A stretch of DNA of 64,000 bases from Micrococcales bacterium 73-13 (GTDB lineage: Bacteria; Actinomycetota; Actinomycetes; Actinomycetales; Microbacteriaceae). Below the pieces are notes generated by a model. The model was given only the letters and a program-made list of their open reading frames with translations, was not told where the DNA came from and made no database searches. Location of the stretch: positions 9,883 through 73,882 of the forward strand of contig MKVN01000022.1 in assembly GCA_001898855.1 (NCBI GenBank), given 5' to 3'. A program made the translations under genes and the position numbers. This document shows, piece by piece, positions 48,907 through 61,418 of the stretch (positions are counted from its first letter, which is position 1; every line of letters begins with the position of its first letter).

Positions 48907-50313
48907 TCAGCGGCGGATGACCGGGCGCAGCGCCGCGAAGCGACGTCCCCGGATCGCCGACCACCACACCCCGGCGCCGTACGCCAGGTCGTCGATCCGG
49001 CGCAGCAGCCCGAACCGCACCGGGTCGAGGTCGGGCTCGAGCCGGACGTACTCGACCGCGGTGTCGGCGACCGCCGCGACGATCGCCGCGGTGCGCACTC
49101 GTCGCGAGCACACCGCGGCGACCAGGGTCGCCGGCCACCAGTGCCGCAGCAGCAGGGCGGAGGTCTGACCCGCCGCCGCGACCAGGCCCTGCCCGGCCAG
49201 TCGCAGCGCGACCGGGCCGGGTCGGCGCACGCCGTCGAGCCGCCGGGCGATCCGACGCGCCGCGATCGCCGTCGCCACCGCCGCGACCGGCAGCGACCAG
49301 CGTCGCTGCGCGAGCAGCGCCGCCATCGTCGCCGCGCTCCACGGCGCGAGCACCGCGGGGGCGATCGCCTCCGGATGGCGCTCCCCCAGCGCGGCGGCGG
49401 AGGTGCCGTAGGAGAACTTCGTCGCGACGAAGGCGCGGAGGCCGGTGCGGTGCTCGTGCGCGACGGCGACCGCCGGCTCGTAGCGCACCCGATGGCCGGC
49501 CGCGACGAGCCGCCAGACCAGGTCGACGTCCTCGCCGACCCGCATCCCGGCGTCGAAGCCCGCGCCGAGCGCCTCGACCCGGCCGACGAGGCAGGTGCTC
49601 GGCACCCAGCCGACGCGGCTGCCCGGCCGCACCGACGCCGCCTCGGCGCCGAGATCGAGGGAGGAGCGCGCCGCCTCGTACCGGGCGACCCAGCCGCCGC
49701 CGGCGTCGAGCGGGACGATCCTCGGCGCGACGAGGGCGACCAGCGGATCCTGGAAGTGCCGCAGCAGCGCGGGGATCGCGCCGGGCCCGAGCACGACGTC
49801 GGAGTCGGCGAACACGACGAACGGCGTCTCGACGTGCGCGAGGCCCAGGTTCCTCGCCGCGGCGGGACCCCGGTTCCGCCGGCTCGCGACGAGGCGCACG
49901 CCGTGCGCGGCGGCGACGCGACGCAGCTCCGCCGGCCGACGGGAGCCGTCGTCGACGACGACGACCCGGTCGGGCGCCGTGTGCGCCGTGAGCGCGACGA
50001 GCAGGCGATCGAGCTGTGGCGCGCGGTCGCGGATCGGCACCACCACGGTGTGATCCGCGTCGAGATCGGGGAGCCGGTCGAGATCGGGGAGCCGGTCGAG
50101 CACGGGGTCCGCGAGACCGGCCTCCAGCAGCCGGTCGGCGAGCACCGCGCCGACCGGCGTCGCGGCGCTGATCCGCCGGCCGTGCAGCGCACGTCGCGCC
50201 TTCGCGGAGAGCCGCAGCAGCCGGGTGGGCGAGCCGCCGATGAGCGCGGCGCCGCCGTCGAGCACCTCGGTGCGCGGTCCGAGCTCGACGAGGAATCCGG
50301 GCGGCAGGCTCAT
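48907..50313 (-). CDS. mftF: Mycofactocin biosynthesis glycosyltransferase MftF
   Basis: 468-aa ORF. GT2 core (VVVPIRDR..., VVVVDDGS, ARNLG, FADSDV) followed by a TM-rich C-terminal region. ATGA overlap with mftE. The call rests on context within a complete mft gene set. Confidence 0.88.
   Translation of the reverse strand: MSLPPGFLVELGPRTEVLDGGAALIGGSPTRLLRLSAKARRALHGRRISAATPVGAVLADRLLEAGLADPVLDRLPDLDRLPDLDADHTVVVPIRDRAPQLDRLLVALTAHTAPDRVVVVDDGSRRPAELRRVAAAHGVRLVASRRNRGPAAARNLGLAHVETPFVVFADSDVVLGPGAIPALLRHFQDPLVALVAPRIVPLDAGGGWVARYEAARSSLDLGAEAASVRPGSRVGWVPSTCLVGRVEALGAGFDAGMRVGEDVDLVWRLVAAGHRVRYEPAVAVAHEHRTGLRAFVATKFSYGTSAAALGERHPEAIAPAVLAPWSAATMAALLAQRRWSLPVAAVATAIAARRIARRLDGVRRPGPVALRLAGQGLVAAAGQTSALLLRHWWPATLVAAVCSRRVRTAAIVAAVADTAVEYVRLEPDLDPVRFGLLRRIDDLAYGAGVWWSAIRGRRFAALRPVIRR
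50059..50100 (-). repeat. Perfect in-frame 18-bp tandem duplication inside mftF
   Basis: GTCGAGATCGGGGAGCCG occurs at 50059-50076 and 50077-50094, followed by a partial third copy GTCGAG. It encodes DRLPDL-DRLPDL. Confidence 0.9.
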
Positions 50314-51002
50314 CCGACGAACCCCCTCGCCCGCTCGGTCGCGCTCGCGACCATGGCGCGCAGGAGCGCGGCGCCCTCCGCGGCGCTCGCACCGGTCGGG
50401 TCGCCGAGCACGCCGTTCGGCGCGACCGCCCGGACGCCCTCCGCGCGCAGCCGCGGCAGCAGCCCGGCGATCGGTTCGACGGCGCCGGGCTCCGCCGCGT
50501 CGAGCGCGACGAGGTCCGGACGCAGCTGGAGCAGCAGCGAGGTCTCGGCGCGGCCGGCGTGCGCGTCCGCGCCCCGCACGCCGCAGGGCAGCCAGGCGGT
50601 GGGCCGGCCCTCGGACTCGAGCAGCGCGACGACCGCGTCGAGGGTCGGCGCGTTCCCGCCGTGGCCGTTGACGAGGAGGGTGCGCGGCGCCCAGGCGCTC
50701 GCCGAGCGGACCAGCTCGACGAGCAGGGCGCGCAGCGCCCCGTGCCCGATCGAGACGGTGCCGGGGAAGCCCTCGTGCTCGCCGCTGGCGCCGTACGGCA
50801 CGGTCGGGCCGAGCACCGCGCCGACCCCGTCCTCGACGAGCGCGGCGACGAGGCGCTCGGCGACCGCCGCGGCGACGATCGCGTCGGTCGCGAGCGGGAG
50901 ATGCGGGCCGTGCTGCTCCGTGGAGCCGACCGGCACGACCAGCAGGTCGACGCCGGCCGCCTCGGGCCAGCGGAGCTCGGCGAGCCGGCGCACCTTCGTC
51001 AC
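50310..51002 (-). CDS. mftE: Mycofactocin precursor peptide peptidase MftE (creatininase family)
   Basis: 230-aa ORF with a GTG start. VVPVGSTEQHGPHLPLATD, GASGEHEGFPGT, VNGHGGN and HAGRAETS (creatininase-family metal ligands). Flanked by mftD and mftF. Confidence 0.9.
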   Translation of the reverse strand: MTKVRRLAELRWPEAAGVDLLVVPVGSTEQHGPHLPLATDAIVAAAVAERLVAALVEDGVGAVLGPTVPYGASGEHEGFPGTVSIGHGALRALLVELVRSASAWAPRTLLVNGHGGNAPTLDAVVALLESEGRPTAWLPCGVRGADAHAGRAETSLLLQLRPDLVALDAAEPGAVEPIAGLLPRLRAEGVRAVAPNGVLGDPTGASAAEGAALLRAMVASATERARGFVG

Positions 51003-51012
51003 CCGGCCGACG

Positions 51013-52248
51013 CTACCCGGCCGCGCGCGCCCGCGGCTTCCGGACGGCGGCCGCGGGCGGCTCGGGCGCGGCGCCGAGCACCCGGCCGAAGTCCGCCGGG
51101 ATGTGGAGATCGTCGGGGCCGAGCTCCGCGATCGACTGGTGCCCGAGGCCGAGCAGCGCGGAGTCGAGGCCCATGCGCAGCAGGTCGAGCACGTTCTCCA
51201 CGCCGGTCTGGCCGTTCGCCGCGAGGCCCCAGAGATAGGCCCGGCCGATCATGACCGCGCGGGCGCCGAGCGCCAGCGCCTTCGCGACGTCGCCGCCGCG
51301 GCGCACGCCGCCGTCGAGGAGCACCTCGATCTGGTCGCCGACACGCGCGGCGACGGCGGGGAGGCAGCGGATCGAGGCGGGGGTCGTGTCGAGGTTGTTC
51401 CCGCCGTGGTTCGACACGGAGACCGCGTCGACGCCGGCGTCGACGGCGCGCAGCGCGTCGTCGATCCGGGTGACGCCCTTGAGCAGCAGCGGACCGCCCC
51501 ACTCCCGCTTGAGCCAGGCGATGTCCTCCCACTGCGGCGGCGGCGTCTGCATCCACTCGTAGTACGCGGCGAAGAACGTCGGGGCGGCCCCGGTCTGCGG
51601 GTCGCGGAGGTTCGGCGCCGTGAGGTCGGGGAGGCCGCCGCCGGTGACGAACCGCCACGCCCAGGGGAGGTGGGTGATCCCCTCCCATTTCATGTCCCAC
51701 ATCGCCTTGAAGCTCATCCGCTCGGGGATCTGCGGGCTGCCCCAGTCGCGGCCGATCGAGAACGACCAGTCCGTCGTGACGATGAGCGCCTTCGCCCCCG
51801 CGGCCCTGGCCCGGTCCATGCGCTGGGCCATCTGCTCGCGGGTGCCCATCCAGTACAGCTGGTAGAAGGTGTTCGGGTTCGCCGCGACGACGTCCTCCAC
51901 CGGCTTCGAGGCGAACGAGGACAGACCCATGATCGTGCCGCGGTTGGCCGCCGCACGGGCCACGGCGACCTCGCCGTCCGGGTGCACCGCCTGCACGCCG
52001 GTCGGCGAGATCAGCACGGGCAGCGAGATCGGGACTCCGAGGACCGTCGTCCCGAGCTGGCGGTCAGGGCGATGCCCGGCGACGTGCGGCGCGAACTGGA
52101 GCTCCGCGAACGCGTTCATGTTGTCCTCGGGCGTGCGCCCGCGCTCGCTGCCGGCCACGAGGGCCGCGTAGACCGACGGCGGCAGGCGGCGCCGGGCCCG
52201 CCGCTGCGCCTCCAGGACGGTCTCGAACCACGGGTTCCGCTTCGCCAC
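51013..52248 (-). CDS. mftD: Pre-mycofactocin synthase MftD (FMN-dependent alpha-hydroxy-acid oxidase family)
   Basis: Start refined to GTG 52248 (VAKRNPWFETVLEAQRRARRRLPPSVY...), with GAGGAG 6 nt upstream. SNHGGNNLD, DGGVRRGGDV, GARAVMIGRAYLWGL. Confidence 0.9.
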   Translation of the reverse strand: MAKRNPWFETVLEAQRRARRRLPPSVYAALVAGSERGRTPEDNMNAFAELQFAPHVAGHRPDRQLGTTVLGVPISLPVLISPTGVQAVHPDGEVAVARAAANRGTIMGLSSFASKPVEDVVAANPNTFYQLYWMGTREQMAQRMDRARAAGAKALIVTTDWSFSIGRDWGSPQIPERMSFKAMWDMKWEGITHLPWAWRFVTGGGLPDLTAPNLRDPQTGAAPTFFAAYYEWMQTPPPQWEDIAWLKREWGGPLLLKGVTRIDDALRAVDAGVDAVSVSNHGGNNLDTTPASIRCLPAVAARVGDQIEVLLDGGVRRGGDVAKALALGARAVMIGRAYLWGLAANGQTGVENVLDLLRMGLDSALLGLGHQSIAELGPDDLHIPADFGRVLGAAPEPPAAAVRKPRARAAG

Positions 52249-52290: not shown

Positions 52291-52311
52291 ATGTGGCACT
52301 CGATGCCACAT
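52291..52311. promoter_or_regulatory. 21-bp perfect palindrome upstream of mftD; candidate second MftR operator
   Basis: ATGTGGCA-CTCGA-TGCCACAT. The core 52294-52308 is the exact reverse complement of 60766-60780 in the mftR/mftA intergenic region. It lies 43 nt upstream of the mftD GTG. A TAGACT -10-like hexamer on the minus strand is at 52278-52283. Confidence 0.6.
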
Positions 52312-52316
52312 TTATC

Positions 52317-53126
52317 TCAGTAGCTGCTCAGACCTCCGTCGACCACGAACGCGCCGCCGGTCGCCCACTTCGACTCGTCCGAGGCGAGGTAGACCATCAG
52401 GTTGGAGATCTCGCTCGGATCGATGAGCCCTGGCATCCACTTCGTGATCATCCCGTAGAGGTTCGGGTTCTCCTCGCGTCCCGGCTCGAAGCCGTCGCGC
52501 GCACCGACGCCCATCGGGGTGTCGACGCTGCCGGGATGCACGGTGTTGACGCGGATCCCGTCCTTGGCCAGCTCCATCGCGAGCGACTTCGCCAGGGCGA
52601 CCACGCCGAACTTCGACACGTTGTAGGCCATGTTGAACGGGCCCGCCTTGAGGCCGTTCGCCGAGCTGGTCATGATGATCGACCCGCCCCCGGCCGCGAG
52701 CAGCCCGTCGACGCCGGCGAGCACGGTGTTGTAGACCCCGGTGAGGTTGACGTCGAGGGTCGTCTGCCAGATCTCCGGGGTCTGCGCGTGCCAGGGACCG
52801 GTGATGTCGATGCCGGCGTTCGCGATGATCACGTCGAGCCGCCCGAGCCGGGCGACCGCGTCCGACACGAAGGCCTTCATCCCGGCGAGGTCGCGCACGT
52901 CGATCGCGCCGGCGACGATCCGGCGGCCGAGCGACTCGACCTGCCGGACCGTCTCCGCGAGCTCCCCGGCCGAGGCGGTCGGGTAGTTCATGTGCTCGAC
53001 CTGCGCCGGCGCGTCGGTCACGATGACGTCCGCGCCCTCCTCGGCCAGACGCACCGCGTGCGCCCGTCCCTGGCCGCGGCCCGCGCCCGTGATGAACGCG
53101 ACCTTGCCCTCCAGCCGACCGGGCAT
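52317..53126 (-). CDS. Mycofactocin-coupled SDR-family oxidoreductase (carveol dehydrogenase-like)
   Basis: Start refined to ATG 53126 (MPGRLEGKVAFITGAGRGQGRAHAVRLAEEGADVI...), overlapping the VOC gene stop (ATGA). The GKVAFITGA-RGQGR-HA N terminus and the NYP-A-ELAETVRQVE-LGRR insert are typical of the mycofactocin-associated SDR subfamily. Catalytic YNVSK. Confidence 0.85.
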   Translation of the reverse strand: MPGRLEGKVAFITGAGRGQGRAHAVRLAEEGADVIVTDAPAQVEHMNYPTASAGELAETVRQVESLGRRIVAGAIDVRDLAGMKAFVSDAVARLGRLDVIIANAGIDITGPWHAQTPEIWQTTLDVNLTGVYNTVLAGVDGLLAAGGGSIIMTSSANGLKAGPFNMAYNVSKFGVVALAKSLAMELAKDGIRVNTVHPGSVDTPMGVGARDGFEPGREENPNLYGMITKWMPGLIDPSEISNLMVYLASDESKWATGGAFVVDGGLSSY

Positions 53127-53632
53127 CACTGCGCGTCCGTGTAGCGCACCAGCTCGAGCTGGTTCCCCCACGGGTCGAGCACGTAGTTGACCTCGATGCC
53201 CGGCCAGGCGCCGGACTCGTCCTCGCCGGCGGGGACCAGGATCGGCTGCGCGGCCTCGGTGCCGCCGTGGGCGAGGATCTGCTCGACGGCCTTCGGGATG
53301 TCGGAGACGACGAAGGCGATGTGGTGCCCGCCGACGTCGTTGTTCCTCGGCGCCGAGGGGTTGCCCGCCGGACGCAGGTACTCGAAGAACTCGATCGGCC
53401 GGCCGTCGCCGAAGCCGACGAACGCGATGTTGTAGAGCGCGTCCGGGACTGCGACGTGCGTGCCGGTCCAGTCCTCGTCGCCCTCGGACATCGCGCGCGA
53501 GTCGAACGGGCCGAGGCGGTAGAGCACGCGGCCGCCGAGGGCCTTCGTGTAGAACTCGATCGCGGCCTCGAGGTCGGGCACGGTGAGCCCGATGTGGTCG
53601 ATGGCTCCGATGAGCGGAGGAGCTGCAGTCAC
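53126..53632 (-). CDS. VOC (glyoxalase/bleomycin resistance/dioxygenase) family protein
   Basis: This is the real part of the 211-aa track ORF. GTG at 53632 (VTAAPPLIGAIDHIGLTVPDLEAAIEFYTKALGG...). HHIAF and DPWGNQLELV. The start codon is uncertain. Confidence 0.75.
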   Translation of the reverse strand: MTAAPPLIGAIDHIGLTVPDLEAAIEFYTKALGGRVLYRLGPFDSRAMSEGDEDWTGTHVAVPDALYNIAFVGFGDGRPIEFFEYLRPAGNPSAPRNNDVGGHHIAFVVSDIPKAVEQILAHGGTEAAQPILVPAGEDESGAWPGIEVNYVLDPWGNQLELVRYTDAQ

Positions 53633-53720
53633 GCGAGTGTCGCCTTTCTCGTCTCGCCGGTCTCGGCAGCGCCGATCGCGGCAGTGACGCCCCCGCGGGT
53701 CCGCGCGGACGATGCCCGCC

Positions 53721-53770
53721 ATGTTACAGGAAGATGACGCAGTGTTCATTTTTCTTGCCAATGTTCATTT
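53721..53770. promoter_or_regulatory. AT-rich control region with three phased (A/G)TGTT(A/C)A repeats between divergent operons
   Basis: ATGTTACA at 53721, GTGTTCAT at 53742 and ATGTTCAT at 53761, spaced 21 and 19 bp apart. The 9-mer TGTTCATTT is exactly repeated at 53743-53751 and 53762-53770. AATGTTCATT is a near-palindrome (AATG/CATT). Confidence 0.4.
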
Positions 53771-53821
53771 ATGCGTCTAGCGTGTCCGCAGCGTCCCGCT
53801 ATCCATCGAAAGGAAGTCCCA

Positions 53822-54811
53822 ATGAAGCGCTCCTTCCAACTGCTCGCGGTCGCGGCCGCGGCGGTGGCCGGCCTGAGCCTGGCCGCATGCTCGTCCGGCG
53901 CCCCGGCGCCGAGCGAGGCCCCGACCTCGACCGAGCCGGCCGTGTCCTACGTGCCGGTCAACGTCGGCGTCGGCTCCGACGCCGGCTACTCGGCCTTCTT
54001 CGTCGCGGACCAGCAGGGTCTGTTCAAGAAGGCCGGCCTCGACGTCACGCTCACCCCGTTCGCCACCGGCGGCGACGCGCTCGCCGCGCTCAGCGCCGGC
54101 CAGATCCAGATGACGCAGAGCTCACCGGCGACGATCACCACGACCATCGCGAACAACCCGAGCATCACCGCCTTCGTCCAGACCGTGGACATCTCGAAGG
54201 TCAACAAGGTGGTCCTGCGCGACGGCATCGAGTCGGCCAAGGACGTGAAGAACTTCGGCTACATCGCCGGGCTCAGCCAGTACATGGCCTACACGTACTT
54301 CGAGGCCAACGGGGTCGACCCCTCGACGATCAACTGGATCGCGGCCGGCGCGGGCGACATGCCCGCCCTGATCCAGCGCGGCGACATCGACGGCTTCTTC
54401 CTGTGGGAGCCCTGGCCGACCAACGTGACCACCGCCGGCGGCGGGCACATCGTGGCGTCCTCGGCGGACTTCCCGGACATGGTGCCCGTCATGGTGAACT
54501 GGGTCGCCTCCACCGACGCCTGGCTCGAGGCCAACGAGCCGACGGCGCAGGCCATCACCAAGGTGCTCGGCGAGGCCATCGACATCATCAACGCCGACCC
54601 GAAGGTCGCCGCGGCCGCGGTGGAGAAGGCCGTCGCGATCAAGGCCGACGACGCCCTCGTCATGGTCGAGCGGCTGAGCTTCGGCCTCAAGCCGATCACG
54701 AGCGACGTCGTCGCCGCGACGCAGAAGATCGGCGACTTCTTCGTGTCCACCGGAGCCATCAAGGCCACCCCGGACCTGAAGAGCGAACTGGTCCTCGACT
54801 GGTCCTGGTAG
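53822..54811 (+). CDS. ABC transporter substrate-binding lipoprotein (NMT1/THI5-like, NitT/TauT family)
   Basis: Start refined to ATG 53822 (MKRSFQLLAVAAAAVAGLSLAAC lipobox), preceded by AGGAAG. The overall pattern resembles aliphatic sulfonate/nitrate/taurine-type binding proteins. Confidence 0.85.
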   Translation: MKRSFQLLAVAAAAVAGLSLAACSSGAPAPSEAPTSTEPAVSYVPVNVGVGSDAGYSAFFVADQQGLFKKAGLDVTLTPFATGGDALAALSAGQIQMTQSSPATITTTIANNPSITAFVQTVDISKVNKVVLRDGIESAKDVKNFGYIAGLSQYMAYTYFEANGVDPSTINWIAAGAGDMPALIQRGDIDGFFLWEPWPTNVTTAGGGHIVASSADFPDMVPVMVNWVASTDAWLEANEPTAQAITKVLGEAIDIINADPKVAAAAVEKAVAIKADDALVMVERLSFGLKPITSDVVAATQKIGDFFVSTGAIKATPDLKSELVLDWSW

Positions 54812-54814
54812 GTC

Positions 54815-55660
54815 ATGTCGTCCACCATCACGAGCGACCGCGATGCCGGGGGACTCCCCGGCATCGCGGTCGCGATGAACTCCGTCGCGATCGCGTTCGG
54901 CGACCTCACCGTGCTGCACGACGTCGACTTCCGGGTGGAGCCCGGCGAGTTCGTCTGCCTGCTCGGGCCGAGCGGCTGCGGCAAGTCGACGCTGCTCGCG
55001 GCGATCGCCGGCTTCGTCGAGCTGTCCGCGGGCGAGGTCGTCTGCAACGACGAGCCGGTCAAGGGCATCAACCGGCATGCCGGCGTCGTCTTCCAGTCCA
55101 GCGAGGCGCTGTTCGAGTGGCTGACCGCCGAGCAGAACGTCGCCTACGGGCCCAGGATGCACGGGAGGGGCAAGCTGGAGAGCCGCCGCGTCGCGGCGGA
55201 CTTCCTCGCGAAGGTCGGCCTCACCCCCGCCGCGAAGAAGTACCCGCGCGAGCTGTCGGGCGGCATGAAGCAGCGCGTGCAGATCGCCCGCGTGCTCGCG
55301 AACGAGCCGCGACTCGTGCTGATGGACGAGCCGTTCGGCGCACTCGACGCGCAGACCCGGCACGTCCTCCAGGAGGAGCTGGTCCGGCTCTGGCAGCGCA
55401 CCGGCTGCAGCATCGTCTTCGTCACCCACGACATCGACGAGTCGGTGATCCTCGCCGACCGGATCGTCGTGATGACCGCCGGCCCGTCGGCGAGGATCAA
55501 GAGCGTCTACCGGGTGGACGCCGCGCGGCCGAGATCGCGGCAGGACGTCGCGGACCTCTACGACCGCATCCAGGAGGACATCCGGGTCGAGGTCGCGCAG
55601 AGCCTGCTGAACCAGGGTCTCGAGATCGACGCCGGCGTCACCGGAGGCGAGGCCCGATGA
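54815..55660 (+). CDS. ABC transporter ATP-binding protein (NitT/TauT family)
   Basis: 281-aa ORF. GPSGCGKST, LSGGMKQRVQIARVL, LVLMDEPFGALD, VFVTHDIDE. Confidence 0.92.
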   Translation: MSSTITSDRDAGGLPGIAVAMNSVAIAFGDLTVLHDVDFRVEPGEFVCLLGPSGCGKSTLLAAIAGFVELSAGEVVCNDEPVKGINRHAGVVFQSSEALFEWLTAEQNVAYGPRMHGRGKLESRRVAADFLAKVGLTPAAKKYPRELSGGMKQRVQIARVLANEPRLVLMDEPFGALDAQTRHVLQEELVRLWQRTGCSIVFVTHDIDESVILADRIVVMTAGPSARIKSVYRVDAARPRSRQDVADLYDRIQEDIRVEVAQSLLNQGLEIDAGVTGGEAR

Positions 55661-56433
55661 GACGTCGCAAGGGGTTCTGGCCCAACCTGCTGAGCACCCT
55701 CGGCACCTGGGCGATCTCCATCACCGTCGGCCTGCTGCTGTGGTGGCTGGCCTCCTCGCTGCTCGGCCCGTACATCATGCCCTCGCCGTGGGCGACGGTG
55801 GTCGGACTCGGCGAGCTCAGCGACCGGGGAACGCTCTGGCCGTCGATCGGCGCCTCGATGTTCCGCATCATCACCGGGTGGACGATCGGCCTGGTGGTCG
55901 GCGCGCCCATCGGCATCCTGATGGGGCGCATCCGGCTGGTCCGCAACTTCCTCGATCCGTACGTCGAGATCCTCCGGTTCATCCCGGCGATCGCGCTCGT
56001 CACGGTCATGGTCGTGTGGTTCGGCATCGGCGAGCAGAGCAAGATCGCGCTCATCGTCTACACCTCGATCTTCGTCGTCGTGATCAGCACCACCGACGCG
56101 ACGCTGCGGATCTCGAACGACAAGGTGCTCGCCGCGCGCAGCCTCGGCGCCGGGAACACCCAGGTGCTCTGGACCGTGGTGCTCCCGTCGGCGGTGCCCG
56201 GCATCATCACCGGCGCACGGCTCGCCATGGCCAACAGCTTCCTGACGATCGTCTCCGCGGAGATGGTCGCCGCGCGCGAGGGCCTCGGCACGATCATCTG
56301 GACCTCGTACAGCTTCGGCCACATCGACTGGATCTTCGCCGGCATCGTGACCCTCGGAATCCTCGGGTTCTGCTGCGACCGCATCCTGCGCATCATCTCG
56401 ACCACGCTGCTCGCCAGGTTCGGCGTGAAATGA
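55657..56433 (+). CDS. ABC transporter permease (NitT/TauT family)
   Basis: This is the real part of the 899-aa track ORF. The ATG at 55657 overlaps the ATPase stop (ATGA). EAA-like loop ARSLGAGNTQVLWTVVLPSAVPGIITGARLA. About 6 TM helices. Confidence 0.88.
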   Translation: MRRRKGFWPNLLSTLGTWAISITVGLLLWWLASSLLGPYIMPSPWATVVGLGELSDRGTLWPSIGASMFRIITGWTIGLVVGAPIGILMGRIRLVRNFLDPYVEILRFIPAIALVTVMVVWFGIGEQSKIALIVYTSIFVVVISTTDATLRISNDKVLAARSLGAGNTQVLWTVVLPSAVPGIITGARLAMANSFLTIVSAEMVAAREGLGTIIWTSYSFGHIDWIFAGIVTLGILGFCCDRILRIISTTLLARFGVK

Positions 56434-56477
56434 CCCCAATGAAGAACGCGATAGCAAGCAAAGGAAATGAGCAACGA

Positions 56478-57059
56478 ATGACGACTGACGAGATCGCCGA
56501 CCTGAAGCACCGCCTGCACGTCCTCGAGTCCGAGGCCGACATCCGCCGGCTGATGGCGCGATACATGTGGCTGTGCGACACCCCGCTGCCGGAGCACCCC
56601 GGCGACCTCGGGCCGCAGGAGCGCATCAGGCTCATCCTCGAGCTGTACTCGAAGGACGCGGTCTGGGAGGGCGTCGGCCCGTTCTACGACGACCAGTTCG
56701 GCTACTCGAAGGGCATGGCGCAGCTCACCGAGCACTTCGAGGGCTTCTTCGCCGGCAAGGGCGAGGGGCAGAACGCGACCTCCGACCTGCTGCTCAACGC
56801 GCACTATCTGACGACCGAGCAGATCCACGTCCACGAGGACGGCACGACCGCCGACGGCCAGTGGATCCACATGCAGCCATGGCTGTTCAGCGATGGCTCC
56901 GCCCTGCTGCGCTCCTCCCGGCTGAACAACGCGTTCAAGATCGAGGACGGCGTCTGGAAGATGTCCCGCTACCGCACGGAGAACGTGTTCGTCGCACCGC
57001 TGCCGGCGTGGTTCGCGTCGAACTACACGGCGAAGTCAGTGCTCACGCAGGTCGATTGA
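56478..57059 (+). CDS. SnoaL-like / NTF2-family protein
   Basis: This is the real part of the 439-aa track ORF. ATG 56478 (MTTDEIADLKHRLHVLESEADIRRLMARYMWLCD) follows the AT-rich AAAGGAAATGAG. ATG 56430, which overlaps the permease stop, is an alternative start. Confidence 0.75.
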   Translation: MTTDEIADLKHRLHVLESEADIRRLMARYMWLCDTPLPEHPGDLGPQERIRLILELYSKDAVWEGVGPFYDDQFGYSKGMAQLTEHFEGFFAGKGEGQNATSDLLLNAHYLTTEQIHVHEDGTTADGQWIHMQPWLFSDGSALLRSSRLNNAFKIEDGVWKMSRYRTENVFVAPLPAWFASNYTAKSVLTQVD

Positions 57060-57072
57060 GCCGGGTCACGCT

Positions 57073-58278
57073 GTGACCCATCAGCCCGGGCGGGCGTCGG
57101 AGCAGGCATTCTCCGACGCCCGCCGGCGCATCGGCGCCGACGAGTTCCATGCCTGGGTCGCGGTCGCCGACCCGGGGCAGGCCGCCGCGTGGCATCCCGG
57201 ACCCGGACCCCTGGAGGGGATCGCGGTGGGCGTGAAGGACGTCATCGACCTCGCCGGGATGCCGACGAGATGCGGCTCGCCCATCACGCTGGACACCCCG
57301 GTCGCGCGGTCCGCGGTGCTCGTCGAGCGGCTCATCGGTCTGGGCGCGATGCCCGTCGGCAAGACCGTGACCACCGAGTTCGCCTTCTTCGCCCCTGGTC
57401 CGACGCAGAATCCGCGAGCACCCGGGCACACCCCGGGCGGGTCCTCGAGCGGCTCGGCCGCCGCGGTCGCGGCCGGGCACGTCCCGCTCGCGCTCGGCAG
57501 CCAGACCGCCGGATCGCTGATCCGGCCCGCCGCGTACTGCGGCGTGGCCGGCCTGGTGCTCCGCCACGACGCGGTGCCGCTGGAGGGCTTCTCCGGACTC
57601 GCCCCCTCGCTCGACGCCGCCGGGCTGATGGCGCCGACCGTCGCCGGGCTGCGCGCCGCGCACGAGGCCCTGTTCCCCGCCCCGCCCCGCCCGAGCCGGG
57701 CGGCGCGGGCGCTCGTCTGGCACGGCGACGACCTCGACGAGGTGTCGCCCGACATGCGCGCCGCGCTCGAGCGCGCGGCGCAGGCCCTGCGGGGGCTCGG
57801 ACTGGATGTCGAGCCGCTCGGGGACGCGCTCCCGATGCGGTCCCTCGCCGCCGATCACCTGACGGTGATGCAGGCCGAGGTCGCTCGCGAGCGTCAGGAC
57901 CTGATGGCCGCCCGCGAGCGCCTGAGCCCTCAGCTGCGCGGACTGCTCGACGCGGGCGCCGCCGTCCCGACGGCGGACTACGCCGCCGCCATCGCGAGGA
58001 CGACGGCGCAGCGCGCCCGGATCGCCGAGCTGCTCGGCGAGGACACCGTGGTCCTCGGCCCGGCCGCCCCGGGCGCCGCGCCCGCAGGGCTCGGGGCCAC
58101 CGGATCCCCCGTGATGAGCCGACCGTGGCAGCTGCTCGGGCTCCCGCAGCTCGCGGTGGCCGGCAGCGTCGACGCGGCCGGGCTCCCGCTCGGGGTGCAG
58201 CTCGTCGCCCGCGGCGGCGCCGAGACGATGCTGCTGACGGCCGGAGAACTCCTGGAGGCTCGCCTTGCCGAGCGCTGA
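57073..58278 (+). CDS. Amidase (amidase-signature family)
   Basis: 401-aa ORF with a GTG start. GVKDVIDLAGMPT (catalytic Lys), GGSSSGSAAAVAAG and GSQTAGSLIRPAAYCG (Ser-cisSer-Lys triad context). Confidence 0.9.
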   Translation: MTHQPGRASEQAFSDARRRIGADEFHAWVAVADPGQAAAWHPGPGPLEGIAVGVKDVIDLAGMPTRCGSPITLDTPVARSAVLVERLIGLGAMPVGKTVTTEFAFFAPGPTQNPRAPGHTPGGSSSGSAAAVAAGHVPLALGSQTAGSLIRPAAYCGVAGLVLRHDAVPLEGFSGLAPSLDAAGLMAPTVAGLRAAHEALFPAPPRPSRAARALVWHGDDLDEVSPDMRAALERAAQALRGLGLDVEPLGDALPMRSLAADHLTVMQAEVARERQDLMAARERLSPQLRGLLDAGAAVPTADYAAAIARTTAQRARIAELLGEDTVVLGPAAPGAAPAGLGATGSPVMSRPWQLLGLPQLAVAGSVDAAGLPLGVQLVARGGAETMLLTAGELLEARLAER

Positions 58279-58327
58279 TCGCCGACGCACTACTCCGGCC
58301 GGCCGTCGGTCGAATACCTTGGGGAGC

Positions 58328-59029
58328 ATGACCGACACGGTGGAAGATCGAACCGACGCCGTGCCCCGCCTCGGCGTACGCGAACGCAAGGCCCACGCGA
58401 CCCGGCGGCGGCTGCTCGCGTCCGCGCTCGACCTCATGGCGCGCGAGGGGACGGACGCCGTCACGGTCCGTGTCGTCGCCGACCACTCGGACATCGCCAC
58501 CGGCACCTTCTACAACTACTTCCCGTCGGCGGAGGCCCTCATCGAGGCCGTCATCGACCTCGAGATCGGCACCATGGGCCGGCGGCTCGACGCCCTGTCG
58601 AACGGCATCGACGATCCGGCCGACGAGCTCTCCGCCGCGCTCCGGCATCTGGTCCGCGCCTCGATCACCGATCCGACCTGGGGCTGGCTGCTCGTGCGGC
58701 TCGGCTCGGAGAGCGAGTGGGTCGCCACCCTGCTCGGCGCACGGCTGGCTCGGACCGTCGAGCGCGGCGCCACGACGGGACGGTTCATCGTCAAGGACGT
58801 GCCCACCGCGACCGCGATGACCCTCGGCGCCCTCGTCGCGGCGACCCGCGTGTTCCTCGATGCGGGTCGTGCGCTCGGCGAGGCCGAGTCGTCCTTCGTG
58901 GAGAACCAGCTGCGCGCACTCGGCATCACGCCGGCCGAGGCGGAGCGGATCGCGAACCGCCGTCTTCCCGAGCTCCCGATCATCGCGGACCAGGGCGCGA
59001 TGTCGATCGTGCGGATCATCGCGCTCTGA
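58328..59029 (+). CDS. TetR-family transcriptional regulator
   Basis: Start refined to ATG 58328 (MTDTVEDRTDAVPRLGVRERKAHATRRRLLASALDLMAREGTDAVTVRVVADHSDIATGTFYNYFPS), preceded by GGGGAG. Typical TetR N-terminal HTH. Confidence 0.88.
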   Translation: MTDTVEDRTDAVPRLGVRERKAHATRRRLLASALDLMAREGTDAVTVRVVADHSDIATGTFYNYFPSAEALIEAVIDLEIGTMGRRLDALSNGIDDPADELSAALRHLVRASITDPTWGWLLVRLGSESEWVATLLGARLARTVERGATTGRFIVKDVPTATAMTLGALVAATRVFLDAGRALGEAESSFVENQLRALGITPAEAERIANRRLPELPIIADQGAMSIVRIIAL

Positions 59030-59060: not shown

Positions 59061-60323
59061 CTAGACGCGACTGGGCGCGAAGTCCGCGAGCGGGTCGTCC
59101 TGGAGGTCGTTGACCGGCATGCCGCCGTTGCTGATCCGGGCGAGGTTCGGCTTGATGTCCAGGGCCGCGGCGGGGTCGATCGGACGGGTGCCGAGCCGCA
59201 CCGGCACCTTCCCGGACTTCGAGTAGCGGATGGTCCGGTGCGAGTGGTCCTGGCCGGGGCGCGGGTGGCTCGCATCGTCGTCGCGCGCCGCGAGCAGCTC
59301 CTCGCCGTAGCCCTGCACGCACTCGGGGTCGGGGCCGTCGAGCGGGAGCCCGGTGAAGAACTTCGCCGCCATGCAGCCGCCCTTGCAGGTGTCGTAGAAC
59401 TTGCAGGACGAGCAGGCGCCGCCCGACTGGGGCGACCGCAGCCGCTGGAAGAGCTCGGAGCCCTGCCAGACGCGCTGGAAGCCGCCTTCGCCGCGCACAT
59501 TGCCCGCGAGGAACTCCTCGTGGATCGCGAACGGGCAGGCGTAGACGTCGCCGATCGGGTCGATCAGGCAGACCACCCGGCCCGCGCCGCAGAGGTTGAG
59601 CCCCGGCAGCGCCTGGCCGAAGGCCGACAGGTGGAAGAAGGAGTCGCCGGTGAGCACGCCGTCGCCGTGCGCGACGAGCCAGTCGTAGAGGATCCGCTGC
59701 TGCTCGGGCAGCGGGTGCAGCTCGTCCCACACGTCGGCGCCGCGGCCGGAGGGGCGCAGCCGGGTGAGCCGCAGCTGCGCGCCGTAGCGGTCGGCGATCG
59801 CCTTGAACTCGTCGAGCTGCGGGATGTTCTGCCGGGTGCAGACCACGGAGAGCTTGAAGTTCCGCATGCCGGCGGCCTGCAGGTTCTCCATCGCGCGGAT
59901 CGCGGTGTCGTAGGAGCCCGGCCCGCGCACCCAGTCGTTCACCTCGGGCGTCGCGCCGTCGAGCGAGATCTGGATGTCGAGGTAGTCGTTGCGCGCGAGG
60001 CGCTCGGCGACCTCGGGGGTGATCTTCACGCCGTTCGTCGAGAACTTCACCCCGACGTGGTGGCTCGTCGCGTAGTCGACGAGCTCCCAGAAGTCCGAGC
60101 GCACGGTCGGCTCGCCGCCGCCGATGTTCACGTAGAACACCTGCATCCGCTCGAGCTCGTCGATGACCGCCTTGCACTCCTCGGTCGTCAGCTCGCGCGG
60201 ATCCCGGCGGCCGGAGCTCGACAGGCAGTGCACGCAGGAGAGGTTGCAGGCGTAGGTGAGCTCCCAGGTCAGGCAGATCGGGGCGTCGAGGCCGTACTCG
60301 AAGAGGTCGACGAGCCGGCTCAT
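59061..60323 (-). CDS. mftC: Mycofactocin radical SAM maturase MftC (radical SAM/SPASM)
   Basis: 420-aa ORF. CLTWELTYACNLSCVHC (CxxxCxxC) and SPASM cysteines (CGAGRVVC, CPF, CSSCKFYDTCKGGC). ATGA overlap with mftB. Confidence 0.95.
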   Translation of the reverse strand: MSRLVDLFEYGLDAPICLTWELTYACNLSCVHCLSSSGRRDPRELTTEECKAVIDELERMQVFYVNIGGGEPTVRSDFWELVDYATSHHVGVKFSTNGVKITPEVAERLARNDYLDIQISLDGATPEVNDWVRGPGSYDTAIRAMENLQAAGMRNFKLSVVCTRQNIPQLDEFKAIADRYGAQLRLTRLRPSGRGADVWDELHPLPEQQRILYDWLVAHGDGVLTGDSFFHLSAFGQALPGLNLCGAGRVVCLIDPIGDVYACPFAIHEEFLAGNVRGEGGFQRVWQGSELFQRLRSPQSGGACSSCKFYDTCKGGCMAAKFFTGLPLDGPDPECVQGYGEELLAARDDDASHPRPGQDHSHRTIRYSKSGKVPVRLGTRPIDPAAALDIKPNLARISNGGMPVNDLQDDPLADFAPSRV

Positions 60324-60586
60324 GCCGCCCGCTCCACGAGCATCGAGGAGCGCTCGAGCGCCCCGAGCGCGGCCGCGAACCGCGGCAGATCGGCCTCGCC
60401 CACCCCGGCGTCGGCGCAGGCGACCCTGGCCGTCGGCGCCTCGTCGAGGCGCTGGACGACGTCGAGCAGGGCGCGGTCCTTCAGGAAGGAGAGCTTGCGC
60501 GTGCCGAAGTGGTAGACGAGCGCCCCGAAGGGCTCGGGGCGGATCGACACCTGGGGGTGGACCGCCCAGGCTCGGTCGAGATCCAT
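60320..60586 (-). CDS. mftB: Mycofactocin biosynthesis chaperone MftB (RRE-type peptide-binding protein)
   Basis: MDLDRAWAVHPQVSIRPEPFGALVYHFGTRKLSFLKD matches the MftB N terminus as I remember it. The ATG at 60586 is preferred; the track's GTG at 60613 is an alternative start. Confidence 0.88.
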   Translation of the reverse strand: MDLDRAWAVHPQVSIRPEPFGALVYHFGTRKLSFLKDRALLDVVQRLDEAPTARVACADAGVGEADLPRFAAALGALERSSMLVERAA

Positions 60587-60617
60587 GGCGGGAACGCCGG
60601 ACGCGATGGGCACGGCG

Positions 60618-60713
60618 TCAGTAGACGCCGCACATCCCGTCGATCGAGACCTCCTCGACGAGCTCCTCGGCGGTCACGACGTCCTCGACGTCGACGGTCT
60701 GCGTGCTGTCCAT
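60618..60713 (-). CDS. mftA: Mycofactocin precursor peptide MftA
   Basis: Not in the ORF track because it is too short. ATG at 60713-60711 is preceded by GAGGAA 6 nt upstream. Translation: MDSTQTVDVEDVVTAEELVEEVSIDGMCGVY-stop, ending in the canonical IDGMCGVY. The stop is 4 nt before the longest possible mftB start. Confidence 0.93.
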   Translation of the reverse strand: MDSTQTVDVEDVVTAEELVEEVSIDGMCGVY

Positions 60714-60765: not shown

Positions 60766-60780
60766 TGGCATCGAGTGCCA
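60766..60780. promoter_or_regulatory. TGGCA-N5-TGCCA palindrome in the mftR/mftA divergent region; candidate MftR operator
   Basis: TGGCATCGAGTGCCA lies 53-67 nt upstream of the mftA ATG and just upstream of mftR. An identical 15-mer in inverted orientation is at 52294-52308. A TTGGCA -35-like hexamer overlaps it on the mftA strand, and TAATCT (60761-60766) is a -10-like hexamer on the mftR strand. Confidence 0.55.
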
Positions 60781-60800: not shown

Positions 60801-61418
60801 ATGACATCCATGGAACGCTCAGGGGCGCGACCCGGGGAGCCGCGACGGAGCACTCGCGCCGTGACCAGCACCGCCGAGCTGAGTCACATCGGCCTGCGGC
60901 TCTTCCTCGAGCGCGGCTTCGAGGCGACGACGGTCGACGACATCGCGGCCGCGGCCGGCATCGGGCGGCGGACGTTCTTCCGCTACTTCCCGTCGAAGAA
61001 CGACCTCGCCTGGGGCGACTTCGACGCGCTCGTCGCGTCGATGCGCGAGCATCTCGCCGCCACCCCGGCCGAGCTGCCGATGATCGCCGCGCTCCGGGTC
61101 GCCATCGTCGAGTTCAACCGCTTCCCGGTCGAGGAGATCGAGTACCACCGGCAGCGGATGCGGCTCATCCTGAACGCGCCCGCCCTCGTGGGGCACTCGG
61201 CGCTGCGCTATCAGAGCTGGCGCACCGCCATCGCGGAGTTCGTCGCGGCGCGCGCCGGCGGGACCCCGGACGACCTGCTGCCGAGCACCGTCGGCTCCGT
61301 GATGCTGGGGCTCGCGCTCGGCGCCTACGCCTACTGGCTCGCGCATCCCGAGACCGAGCTCGTGACGGCGATCGAGACCGCCTTCGACGAGCTCGGCGCG
61401 GCGTTCGGCGACGCGTGA
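60801..61418 (+). CDS. mftR: Mycofactocin system transcriptional regulator MftR (TetR family)
   Basis: Track ORF 60783-61418. ATG 60801 is preferred (GGAG 4 nt upstream, clear of the palindrome); 60783 and 60810 are alternatives. HTH TTVDDIAAAAGIGRRTFFRYFPSKNDL. Divergent from mftA. Confidence 0.88.
   Translation: MTSMERSGARPGEPRRSTRAVTSTAELSHIGLRLFLERGFEATTVDDIAAAAGIGRRTFFRYFPSKNDLAWGDFDALVASMREHLAATPAELPMIAALRVAIVEFNRFPVEEIEYHRQRMRLILNAPALVGHSALRYQSWRTAIAEFVAARAGGTPDDLLPSTVGSVMLGLALGAYAYWLAHPETELVTAIETAFDELGAAFGDA

What the first reader, a model, noticed from the sequence alone, without database searches (positions are those of the whole stretch)
52317..59029. Transport and catabolic module embedded in the mft locus, candidate for a mycofactocin-dependent pathway with unknown substrate
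The block between mftD and mftC encodes two divergent units that share one AT-rich control region (53633-53821). On the minus strand are a VOC-family enzyme and an SDR of the mycofactocin-coupled (carveol dehydrogenase-like) type, directly upstream of mftDEF. On the plus strand are a NitT/TauT-type ABC importer (lipoprotein, ATPase, permease), a SnoaL-like protein, an amidase-signature enzyme and a TetR regulator. Mycofactocin-coupled SDRs are thought to need mycofactocin to re-oxidise a tightly bound nicotinamide cofactor. Placing one of them inside the biosynthetic locus, next to an importer, an amide hydrolase and polyketide-cyclase-like/VOC folds, suggests a dedicated uptake-and-oxidation route for an unidentified amide- or alcohol-containing compound. 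I know of no described mycofactocin-linked pathway with this composition.
Basis: inference. Interest (0 to 1): 0.65.

Follow-up and report, generated by a model that had tools for sequence, protein, structure and literature searches.

The report
Auxin-type catabolic cassette inside mycofactocin locus
A portable, self-regulated gene cassette for importing and breaking down an aromatic amide, related to part of the bacterial auxin-degradation pathway, sits in the middle of a mycofactocin cofactor locus; only one of its eight enzymes is likely to need that cofactor.

Summary
The eight genes are present as described (52317-59029). The SDR passes the mycofactocin-coupled SDR model (TIGR03971, 311.6 bits against a cutoff of 300) and has the family's insertion at the NAD site.

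The block is not specific to mycofactocin loci. Its seven-gene core (VOC | lipoprotein-ATPase-permease-NTF2-amidase-TetR) recurs in five other actinobacterial contexts with no mft gene nearby; none of the four that show the VOC side has a TIGR03971-type SDR there. One further context has all eight genes outside an mft locus. The closest relative's locus is collinear (mftABC-SDR-mftDEF) but lacks the seven genes. So this is a 5.9-kb insertion into a gap that carries variable cargo in related Microbacteriaceae.

The "SnoaL-like" and amidase genes are homologues of IacI and IacH from iac indole-3-acetate catabolic clusters. The regulator is RolR-like. The footprinted MftR operator core occurs exactly twice in the window, before mftA and before mftD, and not in the block's own control region.

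Best reading: a portable, self-regulated uptake and catabolism module for an aromatic amide or lactam related to iac intermediates. Here, and once elsewhere, it has acquired a mycofactocin-coupled SDR. Mycofactocin dependence is plausible for that single step only.

The parts
48907..50313 (-). mftF (mycofactocin glycosyltransferase)
   Evidence: TIGR03965, 422.5 bits against cutoff 280.
50310..51002 (-). mftE (peptidyl-dipeptidase)
   Evidence: TIGR03964, 286.7 bits against cutoff 172.
51013..52248 (-). mftD (pre-mycofactocin synthase), 411 aa
   Evidence: TIGR03966, 649.5 bits. The start at 52248 (GTG after GAGGAG) matches the 100%-identical database protein P0241 of 411 aa.
52294..52308 (.). 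Second MftR operator core, TGGCACTCGATGCCA, in the 68-nt spacer between the SDR stop and the mftD start
   Evidence: One of only 2 matches in 64 kb, against 0.01 expected. Identical to the core of the footprinted M. smegmatis Omft (PMC8728441). Related copies lie before mftD in L100 and L101.
52317..53126 (-). Mycofactocin-coupled SDR (TIGR03971 type), 269 aa
   Evidence: 311.6 bits against cutoff 300. 12-residue insertion after beta2 and conserved D38/S155/Y168/K172. Best PDB match is the mycobacterial 'carveol dehydrogenase' 3tsc, E = 1e-71. 75% aa identity to the L088 SDR.
53126..53632 (-). VOC/glyoxalase-fold protein, 168 aa; its stop overlaps the SDR start
   Evidence: PF00903, E = 3e-14. 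Start inferred from homologues and the SD sequence. 63-70% aa identity to the VOC of all other cassettes.
53633..53821 (.). Divergent control region with a conserved motif: ATGTTACA..(T/A)GTGA(A/C)..GTTCATTTTT-N11-GTTCATTT
   Evidence: The motif aligns across 6 cassette copies. The core 53720-53780 is 39% G+C. No MftR operator here.
53822..54811 (+). Lipoprotein substrate-binding protein, NMT1/SsuA fold (NitT/TauT-type ABC importer)
   Evidence: PF13379, E = 1.7e-20. TIGR01728 scores 87.7 bits, below its cutoff of 163.5. The signal peptide with LAAC lipobox is read from the sequence.
54815..55660 (+). ABC ATPase
   Evidence: PF00005, E = 1.5e-32. Best NCBIfam hits are ntrCD and TauB-type, below cutoffs.
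55657..56433 (+). ABC permease (TauC/SaoP-like)
   Evidence: PF00528, E = 5.8e-26. Frame established by the GC3 plot.
56478..57059 (+). IacI-like NTF2/SnoaL_4 protein, 193 aa
   Evidence: PF13577. 57-66% aa identity to proteins that sit in iacABCDEFGH clusters. AF2 model has pLDDT 83.5; the top structural matches are the lyases and dehydratases LdpA, LinA and BaiE.
57073..58278 (+). IacH-like short amidase-signature enzyme, 401 aa
   Evidence: PF01425, E = 7e-52. 49-55% aa identity to the amidase of actinobacterial iac clusters. Malonamidase E2 is the best PDB match, E = 3e-50. The K54/S124/S148 triad is intact.
58265..59029 (+). RolR-like TetR regulator (probable start 58328, 233 aa)
   Evidence: PF00440 plus PF21306. 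RolR structures 3aqs/3aqt match at E = 1e-42 over the full length. D94, R145 and R148 equivalents are kept; D149 is replaced by Thr. Start options.
59061..60323 (-). mftC (radical SAM maturase)
   Evidence: TIGR03962, 653.6 bits.
60320..60613 (-). mftB
   Evidence: TIGR03967, 106.7 bits.
60618..60713 (-). mftA precursor peptide (…IDGMCGVY)
   Evidence: Read from the sequence.
60766..60780 (.). First MftR operator core (TGGCATCGAGTGCCA) in the mftR/mftA intergenic region
   Evidence: Operator sequence from PMC8728441.
60783..61418 (+). mftR
   Evidence: TIGR03968, 253.2 bits against cutoff 224.9.
61415..62917 (+). mftG (GMC oxidoreductase)
   Evidence: TIGR03970, 411.3 bits against cutoff 387.45. 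Start.

Best explanation
The block is a portable catabolic cassette that landed in the variable cargo gap between mftC and mftD.

Core cassette (seven genes):
- A RolR-like TetR repressor controls a divergent promoter region.
- In one direction this drives a NitT/TauT-type ABC importer, then an IacI-like NTF2-fold enzyme (probably a cofactor-free lyase or dehydratase), then an IacH-like Ser-cisSer-Lys amidase.
- In the other direction it drives a VOC-fold enzyme.

Inferred function: by analogy with iac clusters, the cassette takes up and opens or deaminates an aromatic amide or lactam. The substrate would resemble a mid-pathway intermediate of indole-3-acetate catabolism, of the oxindole/dioxindole type. 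The effector would be a small aromatic compound.

The SDR: in this genome and one other, a TIGR03971 nicotinoprotein SDR is translationally coupled behind the VOC gene. It probably adds one alcohol-oxidation step whose electrons go to mycofactocin.

Regulation: the cassette is regulated on its own. The two halves of the mft locus each keep an MftR operator, so the insertion does not uncouple mftDEF from MftR.

Shown:
- Gene content and family assignments.
- Portability of the cassette.
- The insertion site.
- The positions of the operator cores.

Inferred:
- The substrate class.
- The order of the reactions.
- Use of mycofactocin by the SDR.
For: Cassette recurrence:
- The seven-gene core, with the same order and orientation and 57-85% aa identity, is found with unrelated flanks in L081-83, L084-85, L086-87 (= L001) and L090. 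It is partial in L002.
- All eight genes are in L088/L089. Nucleotide homology there ends exactly at 52317 and 59029. The flanks are a catechol-2,3-dioxygenase-like gene, an M24 hydrolase and a TrmH-like gene, not mft genes.

Insertion:
- The empty site is L099 (mftC 90%, mftD 84% aa identity). It is collinear from RibD_C to SulP and has mftC-SDR-mftD. Homology breaks at window positions 59071 and 53120.
- The gap carries other cargo in relatives: six SDRs plus MoxR and VWA in Agromyces; FMN reductase, mftR, MoxR and VWA in Gryllotalpicola.

IacI/IacH identity:
- In 78 GTDB loci, most relatives of the SnoaL protein sit beside homologues of iacA to iacH.
- Rhizobium (L091) and Amycolatopsis (L092) loci have the complete sets.
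- The literature describes IacI as SnoaL-fold and a marker of iac loci, and IacH as a short amidase (PMC7225977, PMC9613470, PMC11373566).
- The same SBP-ATPase-permease-IacI order occurs in Herbaspirillum and others, beside iacA and iacG.

Other components:
- Amidase catalytic triad intact.
- NTF2 model resembles lyases and dehydratases.
- Regulator matches RolR at E = 1e-42.
- SDR: TIGR03971 score of 311.6 and the NAD-site insertion. It is closer to the L088 SDR (80% nt) than to the SDR resident in the L099 gap (70% nt), while mftD is 85% nt identical to L099.
- MftR operator core found only at mftA and mftD.
Against: - No substrate is demonstrated. The roles of IacH and IacI in the iac pathway are themselves unresolved, so the analogy gives a compound class, not a compound.
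- The cassette proteins form their own subclade, with shared indels and at most 66% identity to IacI proteins from iac clusters. They may have a different substrate.
- The RolR specificity residue Asp149 is Thr here.
- The SDR passes TIGR03971 only narrowly and misses NF009467 (264 bits against 269).
- The contexts without mft genes cover only 2-10 kb on each side. Those genomes may still encode mycofactocin elsewhere.
- VOC-SDR transcripts could read through into mftD. The operator palindrome there could equally act as an RNA hairpin (z = -2.6).
Confidence: 0.6

Rival explanations
1. The whole eight-gene block is a dedicated mycofactocin-dependent pathway, placed in the biosynthetic locus because its function requires the cofactor.
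For: - TIGR03971 SDR inside the block.
- The block sits between mftC and mftD, immediately upstream of mftDEF on the same strand.
- SDR and VOC are translationally coupled in two contexts.
Against: - Five of the six other contexts have the seven-gene core without any mft gene nearby; in the four that show the VOC side, no TIGR03971-type SDR is fused to it. The eight-gene copy in L088 is outside an mft locus.
- No MftR operator lies in the block's control region.
- The block has its own RolR-like regulator.
- The mftC-mftD gap carries unrelated cargo in relatives.
Confidence: 0.15
2. Pure juxtaposition. A mobile seven-gene cassette landed next to the SDR that already lived between mftC and mftD. 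The SDR has nothing to do with the cassette's chemistry.
For: - The closest relative, L099, has an SDR at exactly this position without the cassette.
- The nucleotide alignment to L099 runs through the SDR up to its start.
- None of the four seven-gene cassette copies that show the VOC side has an SDR fused to the VOC.
Against: - The window SDR is only 58% aa / 70% nt identical to the L099 SDR, while the flanking mftC and mftD are 84-90% aa identical.
- The window SDR is 75% aa / 80% nt identical to the SDR attached to the cassette in L088, with the same one-base VOC/SDR overlap, in a non-mft setting.
- So the SDR travels with the cassette.
Confidence: 0.15
3. The cassette acts on a substrate unrelated to auxin or indole. 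Candidates are a small aliphatic amide such as malonamate, or a urea, biuret or sulfonate-type nitrogen source. On this reading the IacH/IacI resemblance reflects only shared folds.
For: - The best solved homologue of the amidase is malonamidase E2 (E = 3e-50), followed by AtzE and biuret hydrolase relatives.
- The transporter's best family matches are taurine, sulfonate and nitrate systems.
- The cassette lacks iacA to iacG.
- The cassette IacI-like proteins form a separate subclade with their own indels.
Against: - 57-66% identity to IacI proteins from iac clusters is very high for a mere fold resemblance.
- The amidase is 49-55% identical to the amidases of actinobacterial iac clusters.
- The regulator is RolR-like with a conserved hydrophobic aromatic pocket.
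- The L088 copy is followed by a catechol-2,3-dioxygenase-like gene.
- A similar transporter precedes iacI in proteobacterial loci that contain iacA and iacG.
Confidence: 0.25

Closest known systems
iac gene clusters for indole-3-acetic acid catabolism (Pseudomonas putida 1290 iacABCDEFGRHI and iac-like loci)
   Same: - The NTF2/SnoaL_4 protein and the short amidase are homologues of IacI and IacH. They are 57-66% and 30-55% identical to the copies inside full iac clusters.
- The two genes are adjacent, as they are in many iac loci.
- An SBP-ATPase-permease-IacI arrangement also exists in some iac-like loci.
   Different: - No iacA, B, C, D, E, F or G in the block.
- The regulator is a RolR-like TetR, not MarR or LysR.
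- It adds a VOC enzyme and, in two copies, a mycofactocin-type SDR.
- The cassette proteins form a separate subclade with shared indels.
Mycofactocin loci with neighbouring TIGR03971 SDRs (Haft 2011, PMC3023750; Haft et al. 2017, PMC5264612)
   Same: - An SDR of this subfamily is encoded within the mft cluster.
- It has the same NAD-site insertion and catalytic residues.
- Relatives carry one to six such SDRs in the same mftC-mftD gap.
   Different: - Here the SDR is fused to a complete importer, hydrolase and regulator cassette of separate origin.
- The same fusion also exists outside an mft locus.
RolR, the resorcinol-responsive TetR repressor of Corynebacterium glutamicum (PDB 3AQS/3AQT; PMC3086911)
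   Same: - Full-length similarity (E = 1e-42) and the same C-terminal domain family, PF21306.
- Asp94, Arg145, Arg148 and the hydrophobic pocket residues are conserved.
   Different: - Asp149, which sets resorcinol specificity, is Thr, so the effector is probably different.
- It controls an importer/amidase cassette rather than rolHMD.
Malonamidase E2 of Bradyrhizobium japonicum (PDB 1OCK and others)
   Same: - A short (about 400 aa) amidase-signature enzyme.
- The alignment is nearly full length and the Lys-cisSer-Ser triad is conserved.
   Different: - The match is remote. NCBIfam scores are all far below the equivalog cutoffs.
- The genomic partners point to aromatic rather than malonamate chemistry.
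M. smegmatis MftR-Omft regulation of mftA-F (PMC8728441)
   Same: The operator core TGGCACTCGATGCCA is identical and lies upstream of mftA.
   Different: A second copy precedes mftD, so the split locus has two MftR-controlled units. The mycobacterial locus is contiguous, with one mapped operator.

Membership tests
TIGR03971 mycofactocin-coupled SDR | Score at or above the curated cutoff of the subfamily model | tested here: met
   311.6 bits against cutoff 300 for the 269-aa protein. The L088 orthologue scores 307.4. The sister model NF009467 scores 264.2 against 269, just below its cutoff.
TIGR03971 mycofactocin-coupled SDR | [quoted passage not shown] | tested here: met
   A 12-residue insertion (QVEHMNYPTASA) lies after the beta2 Asp, relative to IacE and a classical SDR. 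It is shared with the Agromyces and Rhodococcus members. The feature is described in PMC5264612.
TIGR03971 mycofactocin-coupled SDR | Catalytic Ser-Tyr-Lys and the NAD-specifying Asp are conserved | tested here: met
   D38, S155, Y168 and K172 are invariant in the alignment. Criteria from PMC3023750.
TIGR03971 mycofactocin-coupled SDR | Occurs in a genome that encodes mycofactocin biosynthesis | tested here: met
   mftA to mftG and mftR are all in the window. Unknown for the L088 organism.
TIGR03971 mycofactocin-coupled SDR | Non-exchangeable NAD(H), re-oxidised by mycofactocin | not testable with these tools
   Needs biochemistry.
iac-type indole-3-acetate catabolic locus | IacI (SnoaL-fold marker protein) present | tested here: met
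   61-63% aa identity to the IacI of the complete Rhizobium and Amycolatopsis iac clusters.
iac-type indole-3-acetate catabolic locus | IacH amidase present | tested here: met
   50% aa identity to the Amycolatopsis IacH and 30% to the Rhizobium IacH.
iac-type indole-3-acetate catabolic locus | IacA and IacB, which initiate IAA oxidation and are marker genes with iacI | tested here: not met
   No homologue in the block or in any cassette copy. The only ACAD-like hit in the window is a generic one at 35.4-36.4 kb, at 27-32% identity.
iac-type indole-3-acetate catabolic locus | IacCD Rieske dioxygenase with IacF and IacG reductases | tested here: not met
   Absent from the window and from all cassette copies.
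Amidase-signature family | Pfam PF01425 match and the Lys-cisSer-Ser catalytic triad | tested here: met
   177 bits against cutoff 27. K54, S124 and S148 align with K62, S131 and S155 of malonamidase E2.
NitT/TauT-type ABC importer | NMT1-fold binding protein, TauC/SsuC-like permease and cognate ATPase in one operon | tested here: met
   PF13379, PF00528 and PF00005. All substrate-specific NCBIfam models score below their cutoffs, so the substrate is not assigned.
RolR-type TetR regulators | Full-length similarity to RolR, including the C-terminal ligand domain | tested here: met
   E = 1e-42 over residues 11-240. PF21306 scores 81 bits.
RolR-type TetR regulators | Four-residue resorcinol recognition motif Asp94-Arg145-Arg148-Asp149 | tested here: not met
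   D109, R160 and R163 are conserved, but the Asp149 equivalent is Thr164. Motif from PMC3086911.
MftR regulon | Omft operator core upstream of the transcription unit | tested here: not met
   For the block, there is no match in 53633-53821. The only two matches in the window lie before mftA and before mftD.

The most novel reading that the evidence does not exclude
The cassette is a salvage route for an excreted auxin catabolite of the 2-oxindole-3-acetate, dioxindole-3-acetate or dioxindole type.
- The IacI-like lyase and the IacH-like lactam/amide hydrolase act in sequence. This would reveal the long-unresolved roles of IacI and IacH.
- In the eight-gene version, the mycofactocin-coupled SDR oxidises a secondary alcohol intermediate, for example dioxindole to isatin.
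- That would be a first defined physiological substrate for a TIGR03971 enzyme outside alcohol and terpene metabolism.
Probability: 0.12. Interest if true: 0.75.

Novelty: new variant of a known kind. Interest (0 to 1): 0.45.

Why it matters
**For mycofactocin biology.**
- Physiological substrates are unknown for almost all of the many TIGR03971 SDRs.
- Here one is fused to a small, self-contained module with an importer and a dedicated sensor. That offers two proteins (the binding protein and the TetR regulator) with which to fish for the ligand.

**For auxin catabolism.**
- A minimal cassette containing only the IacH-like and IacI-like enzymes plus an importer argues that these two act together on a diffusible compound.
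- This makes their unresolved role testable.

**For locus architecture.**
- The mftC-mftD gap is a cargo slot.
- A second copy of the footprinted MftR operator can keep mftDEF under MftR control when the locus is split.

**Limits.** The stronger claim, a new mycofactocin-dependent pathway, is not established.

Tried and rejected
1. **Base composition as evidence of recent transfer: rejected.** The lower G+C of the block comes from codon positions 1 and 2. GC3 is 0.90-0.98 across the block and its flanks, and mftC itself is 70% G+C.
2. **Promoter and terminator scans:** nothing above shuffles. The G+C-rich stem between the TetR and mftC stops is no better than shuffled sequence.
3. **The stem-loop after the SDR stop (z = -2.6):** first read as an RNA attenuator, and mftDEF as dependent on the cassette promoter. 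This reading was downgraded when the same palindrome proved to be the MftR operator core.
4. **Metagenome scan with a subclade profile:** gave only 3 loci, one already known. The cassette is rare, so the context count stays small.
5. **Plasmid collection:** no record carries the cassette. Only generic ABC and amidase matches were found.
6. **Rfam:** no riboswitch or other RNA family in 48-63 kb.
7. **Sequence search of the PDB with the NTF2 protein:** nothing significant. A fold search was needed.
8. **Same-genome test:** tested whether the cassette contig L081 and the mft contig L099, from the same sample, belong to one genome. The tetranucleotide correlation was 0.945, lower than L099 against the window (0.989). 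This is inconclusive and leans against.
9. **No mobile-element repeats** were found at the insertion boundaries.

Full report
**1. What is there**

The window has 73.6% G+C, so genes were called from third-position G+C and family matches.

The minus strand carries:
- mftA (60618-60713, …IDGMCGVY), mftB and mftC (59061-60323);
- further on, a VOC-fold gene (53126-53632), an SDR (52317-53126), mftD (51013-52248), mftE and mftF;
- then an ArsR-type regulator and a SulP transporter.

The plus strand, between mftC and the VOC gene, carries:
- a lipoprotein binding protein of the NMT1/SsuA fold (53822-54811);
- an ABC ATPase and a permease;
- a SnoaL_4 protein (56478-57059);
- a 401-aa amidase-signature protein (57073-58278);
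- a TetR regulator (ending at 59029).

mftR and mftG lie divergently beyond mftA.

MftD is 100% identical to a protein of the MAG "Micrococcales bacterium 73-13". That MAG, or a near-identical genome, is the likely source of the window.

**2. The SDR**

- The 269-aa protein scores 311.6 bits on TIGR03971 (cutoff 300). It falls just short on the sister model NF009467 (264 against 269).
- It has the 12-residue insertion after beta2 that defines the nicotinoprotein subfamily, plus the conserved Asp, Ser, Tyr and Lys (criteria in PMC3023750 and PMC5264612).
- Its best solved relatives are the mycobacterial "carveol dehydrogenases" (3tsc, E = 1e-71).

**3. The block is a portable unit, mostly found without mycofactocin genes**

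Searching with the SnoaL_4 protein found a small subclade at 66-93% identity. Their contigs show the same seven genes (VOC on one strand; SBP, ATPase, permease, SnoaL_4, about 405-aa amidase and TetR_C_40 regulator on the other) in unrelated surroundings:

| Context | Flanking genes |
|---|---|
| L081-83 | Inositol-phosphatase and CLC channel on one side; DUF485 and SSF transporter on the other |
| L084-85 | MarR then an ordinary SDR on one side; DUF2200 and Tad pilus genes on the other |
| L086-87 (= L001, MAG GCA_015654575.1) | SprT-like; 2-phosphosulfolactate phosphatase |
| L090 | PRK, PGM, rpsI |
| L002 (partial copy) | No mftC after the TetR regulator |

- None of these has an mft gene within the 2-10 kb available.
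- None of the four contexts that show the VOC side has a TIGR03971-type SDR fused to the VOC gene. L084 has an ordinary SDR two genes beyond the VOC.
- One context, L088/L089, has all eight genes. Its SDR is 75% aa identical, scores 307.4 bits on TIGR03971, and shows the same one-base VOC/SDR overlap.
- Nucleotide homology between L088 and the window runs over 52317-53622 and 53736-59029 and stops there.
- Beyond the L088 SDR lie a catechol-2,3-dioxygenase-like gene and an M24 hydrolase. Beyond its TetR regulator lies a TrmH-like gene, not mftC.
- A metagenome scan added nothing new, and no plasmid carries the cassette. The cassette is rare.

**4. It is an insertion into a variable gap of the mft locus**

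- The closest mft locus found is L099 (MftC 90%, MftD 84% aa identity). It is collinear with the window from the RibD_C gene through mftG, mftR, mftABC, one SDR and mftDEF to ArsR and SulP, but lacks the seven genes.
- Homology breaks at window positions 59071 and 53120.
- In Agromyces the same gap holds six TIGR03971 SDRs plus MoxR and VWA genes. In Gryllotalpicola it holds an FMN reductase, mftR, MoxR and VWA.
- An SDR between mftC and mftD is therefore the norm here, in line with the published observation that these SDRs often neighbour mft genes.
- The window's SDR is not simply the resident one. It is 58% aa / 70% nt identical to the L099 SDR, against 85% nt for the adjacent mftD. It is 75% aa / 80% nt identical to the cassette-linked SDR of L088.
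- The SDR thus belongs to the eight-gene version of the cassette. Whether that version formed in an mft locus and moved out, or formed elsewhere and replaced the resident SDR, is open.
- Base composition gives no sign of recent transfer. GC3 is uniformly 0.90-0.98.

**5. What the cassette enzymes are**

The SnoaL_4 protein:
- It belongs to a very conserved family (57-66% identity) spread over Actinobacteria and Alpha- and Betaproteobacteria.
- In most of 78 species-representative loci, the family member sits beside homologues of iacA, B, C, D, E, F, G and H.
- The Rhizobium (L091) and Amycolatopsis (L092) loci show the full iac set by Pfam content.
- The literature describes IacI as a SnoaL-fold protein and a marker of iac loci, with an unresolved function (PMC7225977, PMC9613470).
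- The literature describes IacH as a short amidase of unknown role (PMC11373566, PMC11676955).

The cassette therefore contains IacI-like and IacH-like genes but none of iacA to iacG.

- The amidase is 49-55% identical to the amidases of actinobacterial iac clusters. Its best solved relative is malonamidase E2, and its Lys-cisSer-Ser triad is intact.
- An AlphaFold model of the IacI-like protein (pLDDT 83.5) is closest to the cofactor-free lyases and dehydratases LdpA, LinA, BaiE and scytalone dehydratase.
- In Herbaspirillum and a few other proteobacteria, an SBP-ATPase-permease set of the same type directly precedes iacI, beside iacA and a flavin reductase. The transporter-IacI link is therefore older than this cassette.
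- The regulator matches RolR, the resorcinol-sensing TetR of Corynebacterium, over its full length (E = 1e-42). The pocket-lid residues and hydrophobic pocket are kept, but the specificity residue Asp149 is replaced by Thr.

Together these findings point to a small aromatic amide or lactam as substrate or effector. This is inference. No compound is identified, and the cassette proteins form their own subclade with private indels.

**6. Regulation**

- The 189-nt divergent region (53633-53821) is 60% G+C with a 39% G+C core.
- It carries a motif conserved in all six cassette copies: ATGTTACA, a TGTGAA-like element, and two GTTCATTT(TT) repeats about 21 nt apart. This is presumably the operator of the cassette's own regulator.
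- Separately, the palindrome TGGCACTCGATGCCA occurs exactly twice in the 64 kb, against 0.01 expected.
  - One copy lies in the mftR/mftA intergenic region (60766-60780).
  - The other lies in the 68-nt spacer between the SDR stop and the mftD start (52294-52308).
- It is identical to the core of the DNase-footprinted MftR operator of M. smegmatis, 5'-TCCATTCTGGCACTCGATGCCATATAT (PMC8728441).
- Variants of it precede mftA and mftD (and MoxR) in Gryllotalpicola, and mftD in L100. In L099 a variant precedes mftA, while the short mftC-SDR and SDR-mftD spacers have none.
- The sequence-level prediction is that mftABC and mftDEF are each under MftR control, while the inserted block answers to its own sensor.
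- Read-through from VOC-SDR into mftD cannot be excluded.

**7. Verdict**

One enzyme of the block is a bona fide mycofactocin-type SDR that travels with the cassette in two contexts, so a mycofactocin-dependent step is plausible.
- The cassette as a whole is an independent, self-regulated module, found in five of the six other contexts without mft neighbours and, wherever the VOC side is visible there, without that SDR. Its landing place is a gap that habitually carries cargo.
- It is best described as a new variant that combines two known kinds: part of an iac-type pathway, and an mft-coupled SDR.
- Interest is moderate. Its value lies in offering tractable handles on two open questions: the substrates of TIGR03971 SDRs, and the roles of IacH and IacI.

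Noticed in passing
window 52294-52308 and 60766-60780: The exact core of the experimentally footprinted mycobacterial MftR operator (TGGCACTCGATGCCA) occurs twice: before mftA and before mftD. This implies two MftR-controlled units in a split mft locus. The mftD copy is also a 9-bp perfect stem in RNA (z = -2.6).
   Followed up: partly
L095 7323-14585; L101 6497-9925; L099 9167-9973: The gap between mftC and mftD carries different cargo in related Microbacteriaceae. Agromyces has six paralogous TIGR03971 SDRs plus MoxR-like AAA and VWA genes. Gryllotalpicola has an FMN reductase, mftR, MoxR and VWA. L099 has a single SDR.
   Followed up: partly
L101 4750, about 7803 and 9953; L100 10089: Operator-like variants (GGCACT[CG][AG]GTGCC followed by a TAGT/TACT -10-like element) precede several transcription units within mft loci, including the MoxR-VWA pair.
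   Followed up: partly
L088 3-2182: In the only other eight-gene copy, the SDR is followed by a catechol-2,3-dioxygenase-like gene (307 bits against cutoff 320) and a creatinase/M24-type hydrolase. This suggests a longer aromatic catabolic operon there.
   Followed up: partly
L088 3576-3981: The divergent control region of this cassette copy is twice as long (406 nt). It holds two copies of the GTTCATTTTT-type operator-like motif.
   Followed up: no
L070 3409-13156: Herbaspirillum sp. GW103 has a different partial iac-like cluster: TonB receptor, IacA-like oxygenase, NitT/TauT ABC importer, IacI, an alpha/beta hydrolase in place of the amidase, and a 515-aa protein ending in a flavin reductase domain.
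   Followed up: partly
L093 202-9146: A 65%-identical relative of the SDR sits in a non-mft cluster with another SnoaL_4 protein, a GMC oxidoreductase, an aldo-keto reductase, a zinc ADH, a second SDR and an FAD oxidoreductase. This is another pairing of this SDR type with an NTF2-fold protein.
   Followed up: no
window 46776-48850: An ArsR/SmtB-type regulator and a SulP-family transporter directly follow mftF. They are conserved at this position in L099.
   Followed up: no
window 57073-58278: The amidase gene has clearly higher G+C (0.77) than the rest of the cassette (0.66-0.71). The same holds in L088 (0.73 against 0.65-0.70), so this reflects amino-acid composition, not a mosaic.
   Followed up: yes
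window 56430-56478: The start of the IacI-like gene is ambiguous. A near-identical database protein is called from 56430 (209 aa), but homologues and a Shine-Dalgarno sequence favour 56478 (193 aa).
   Followed up: partly
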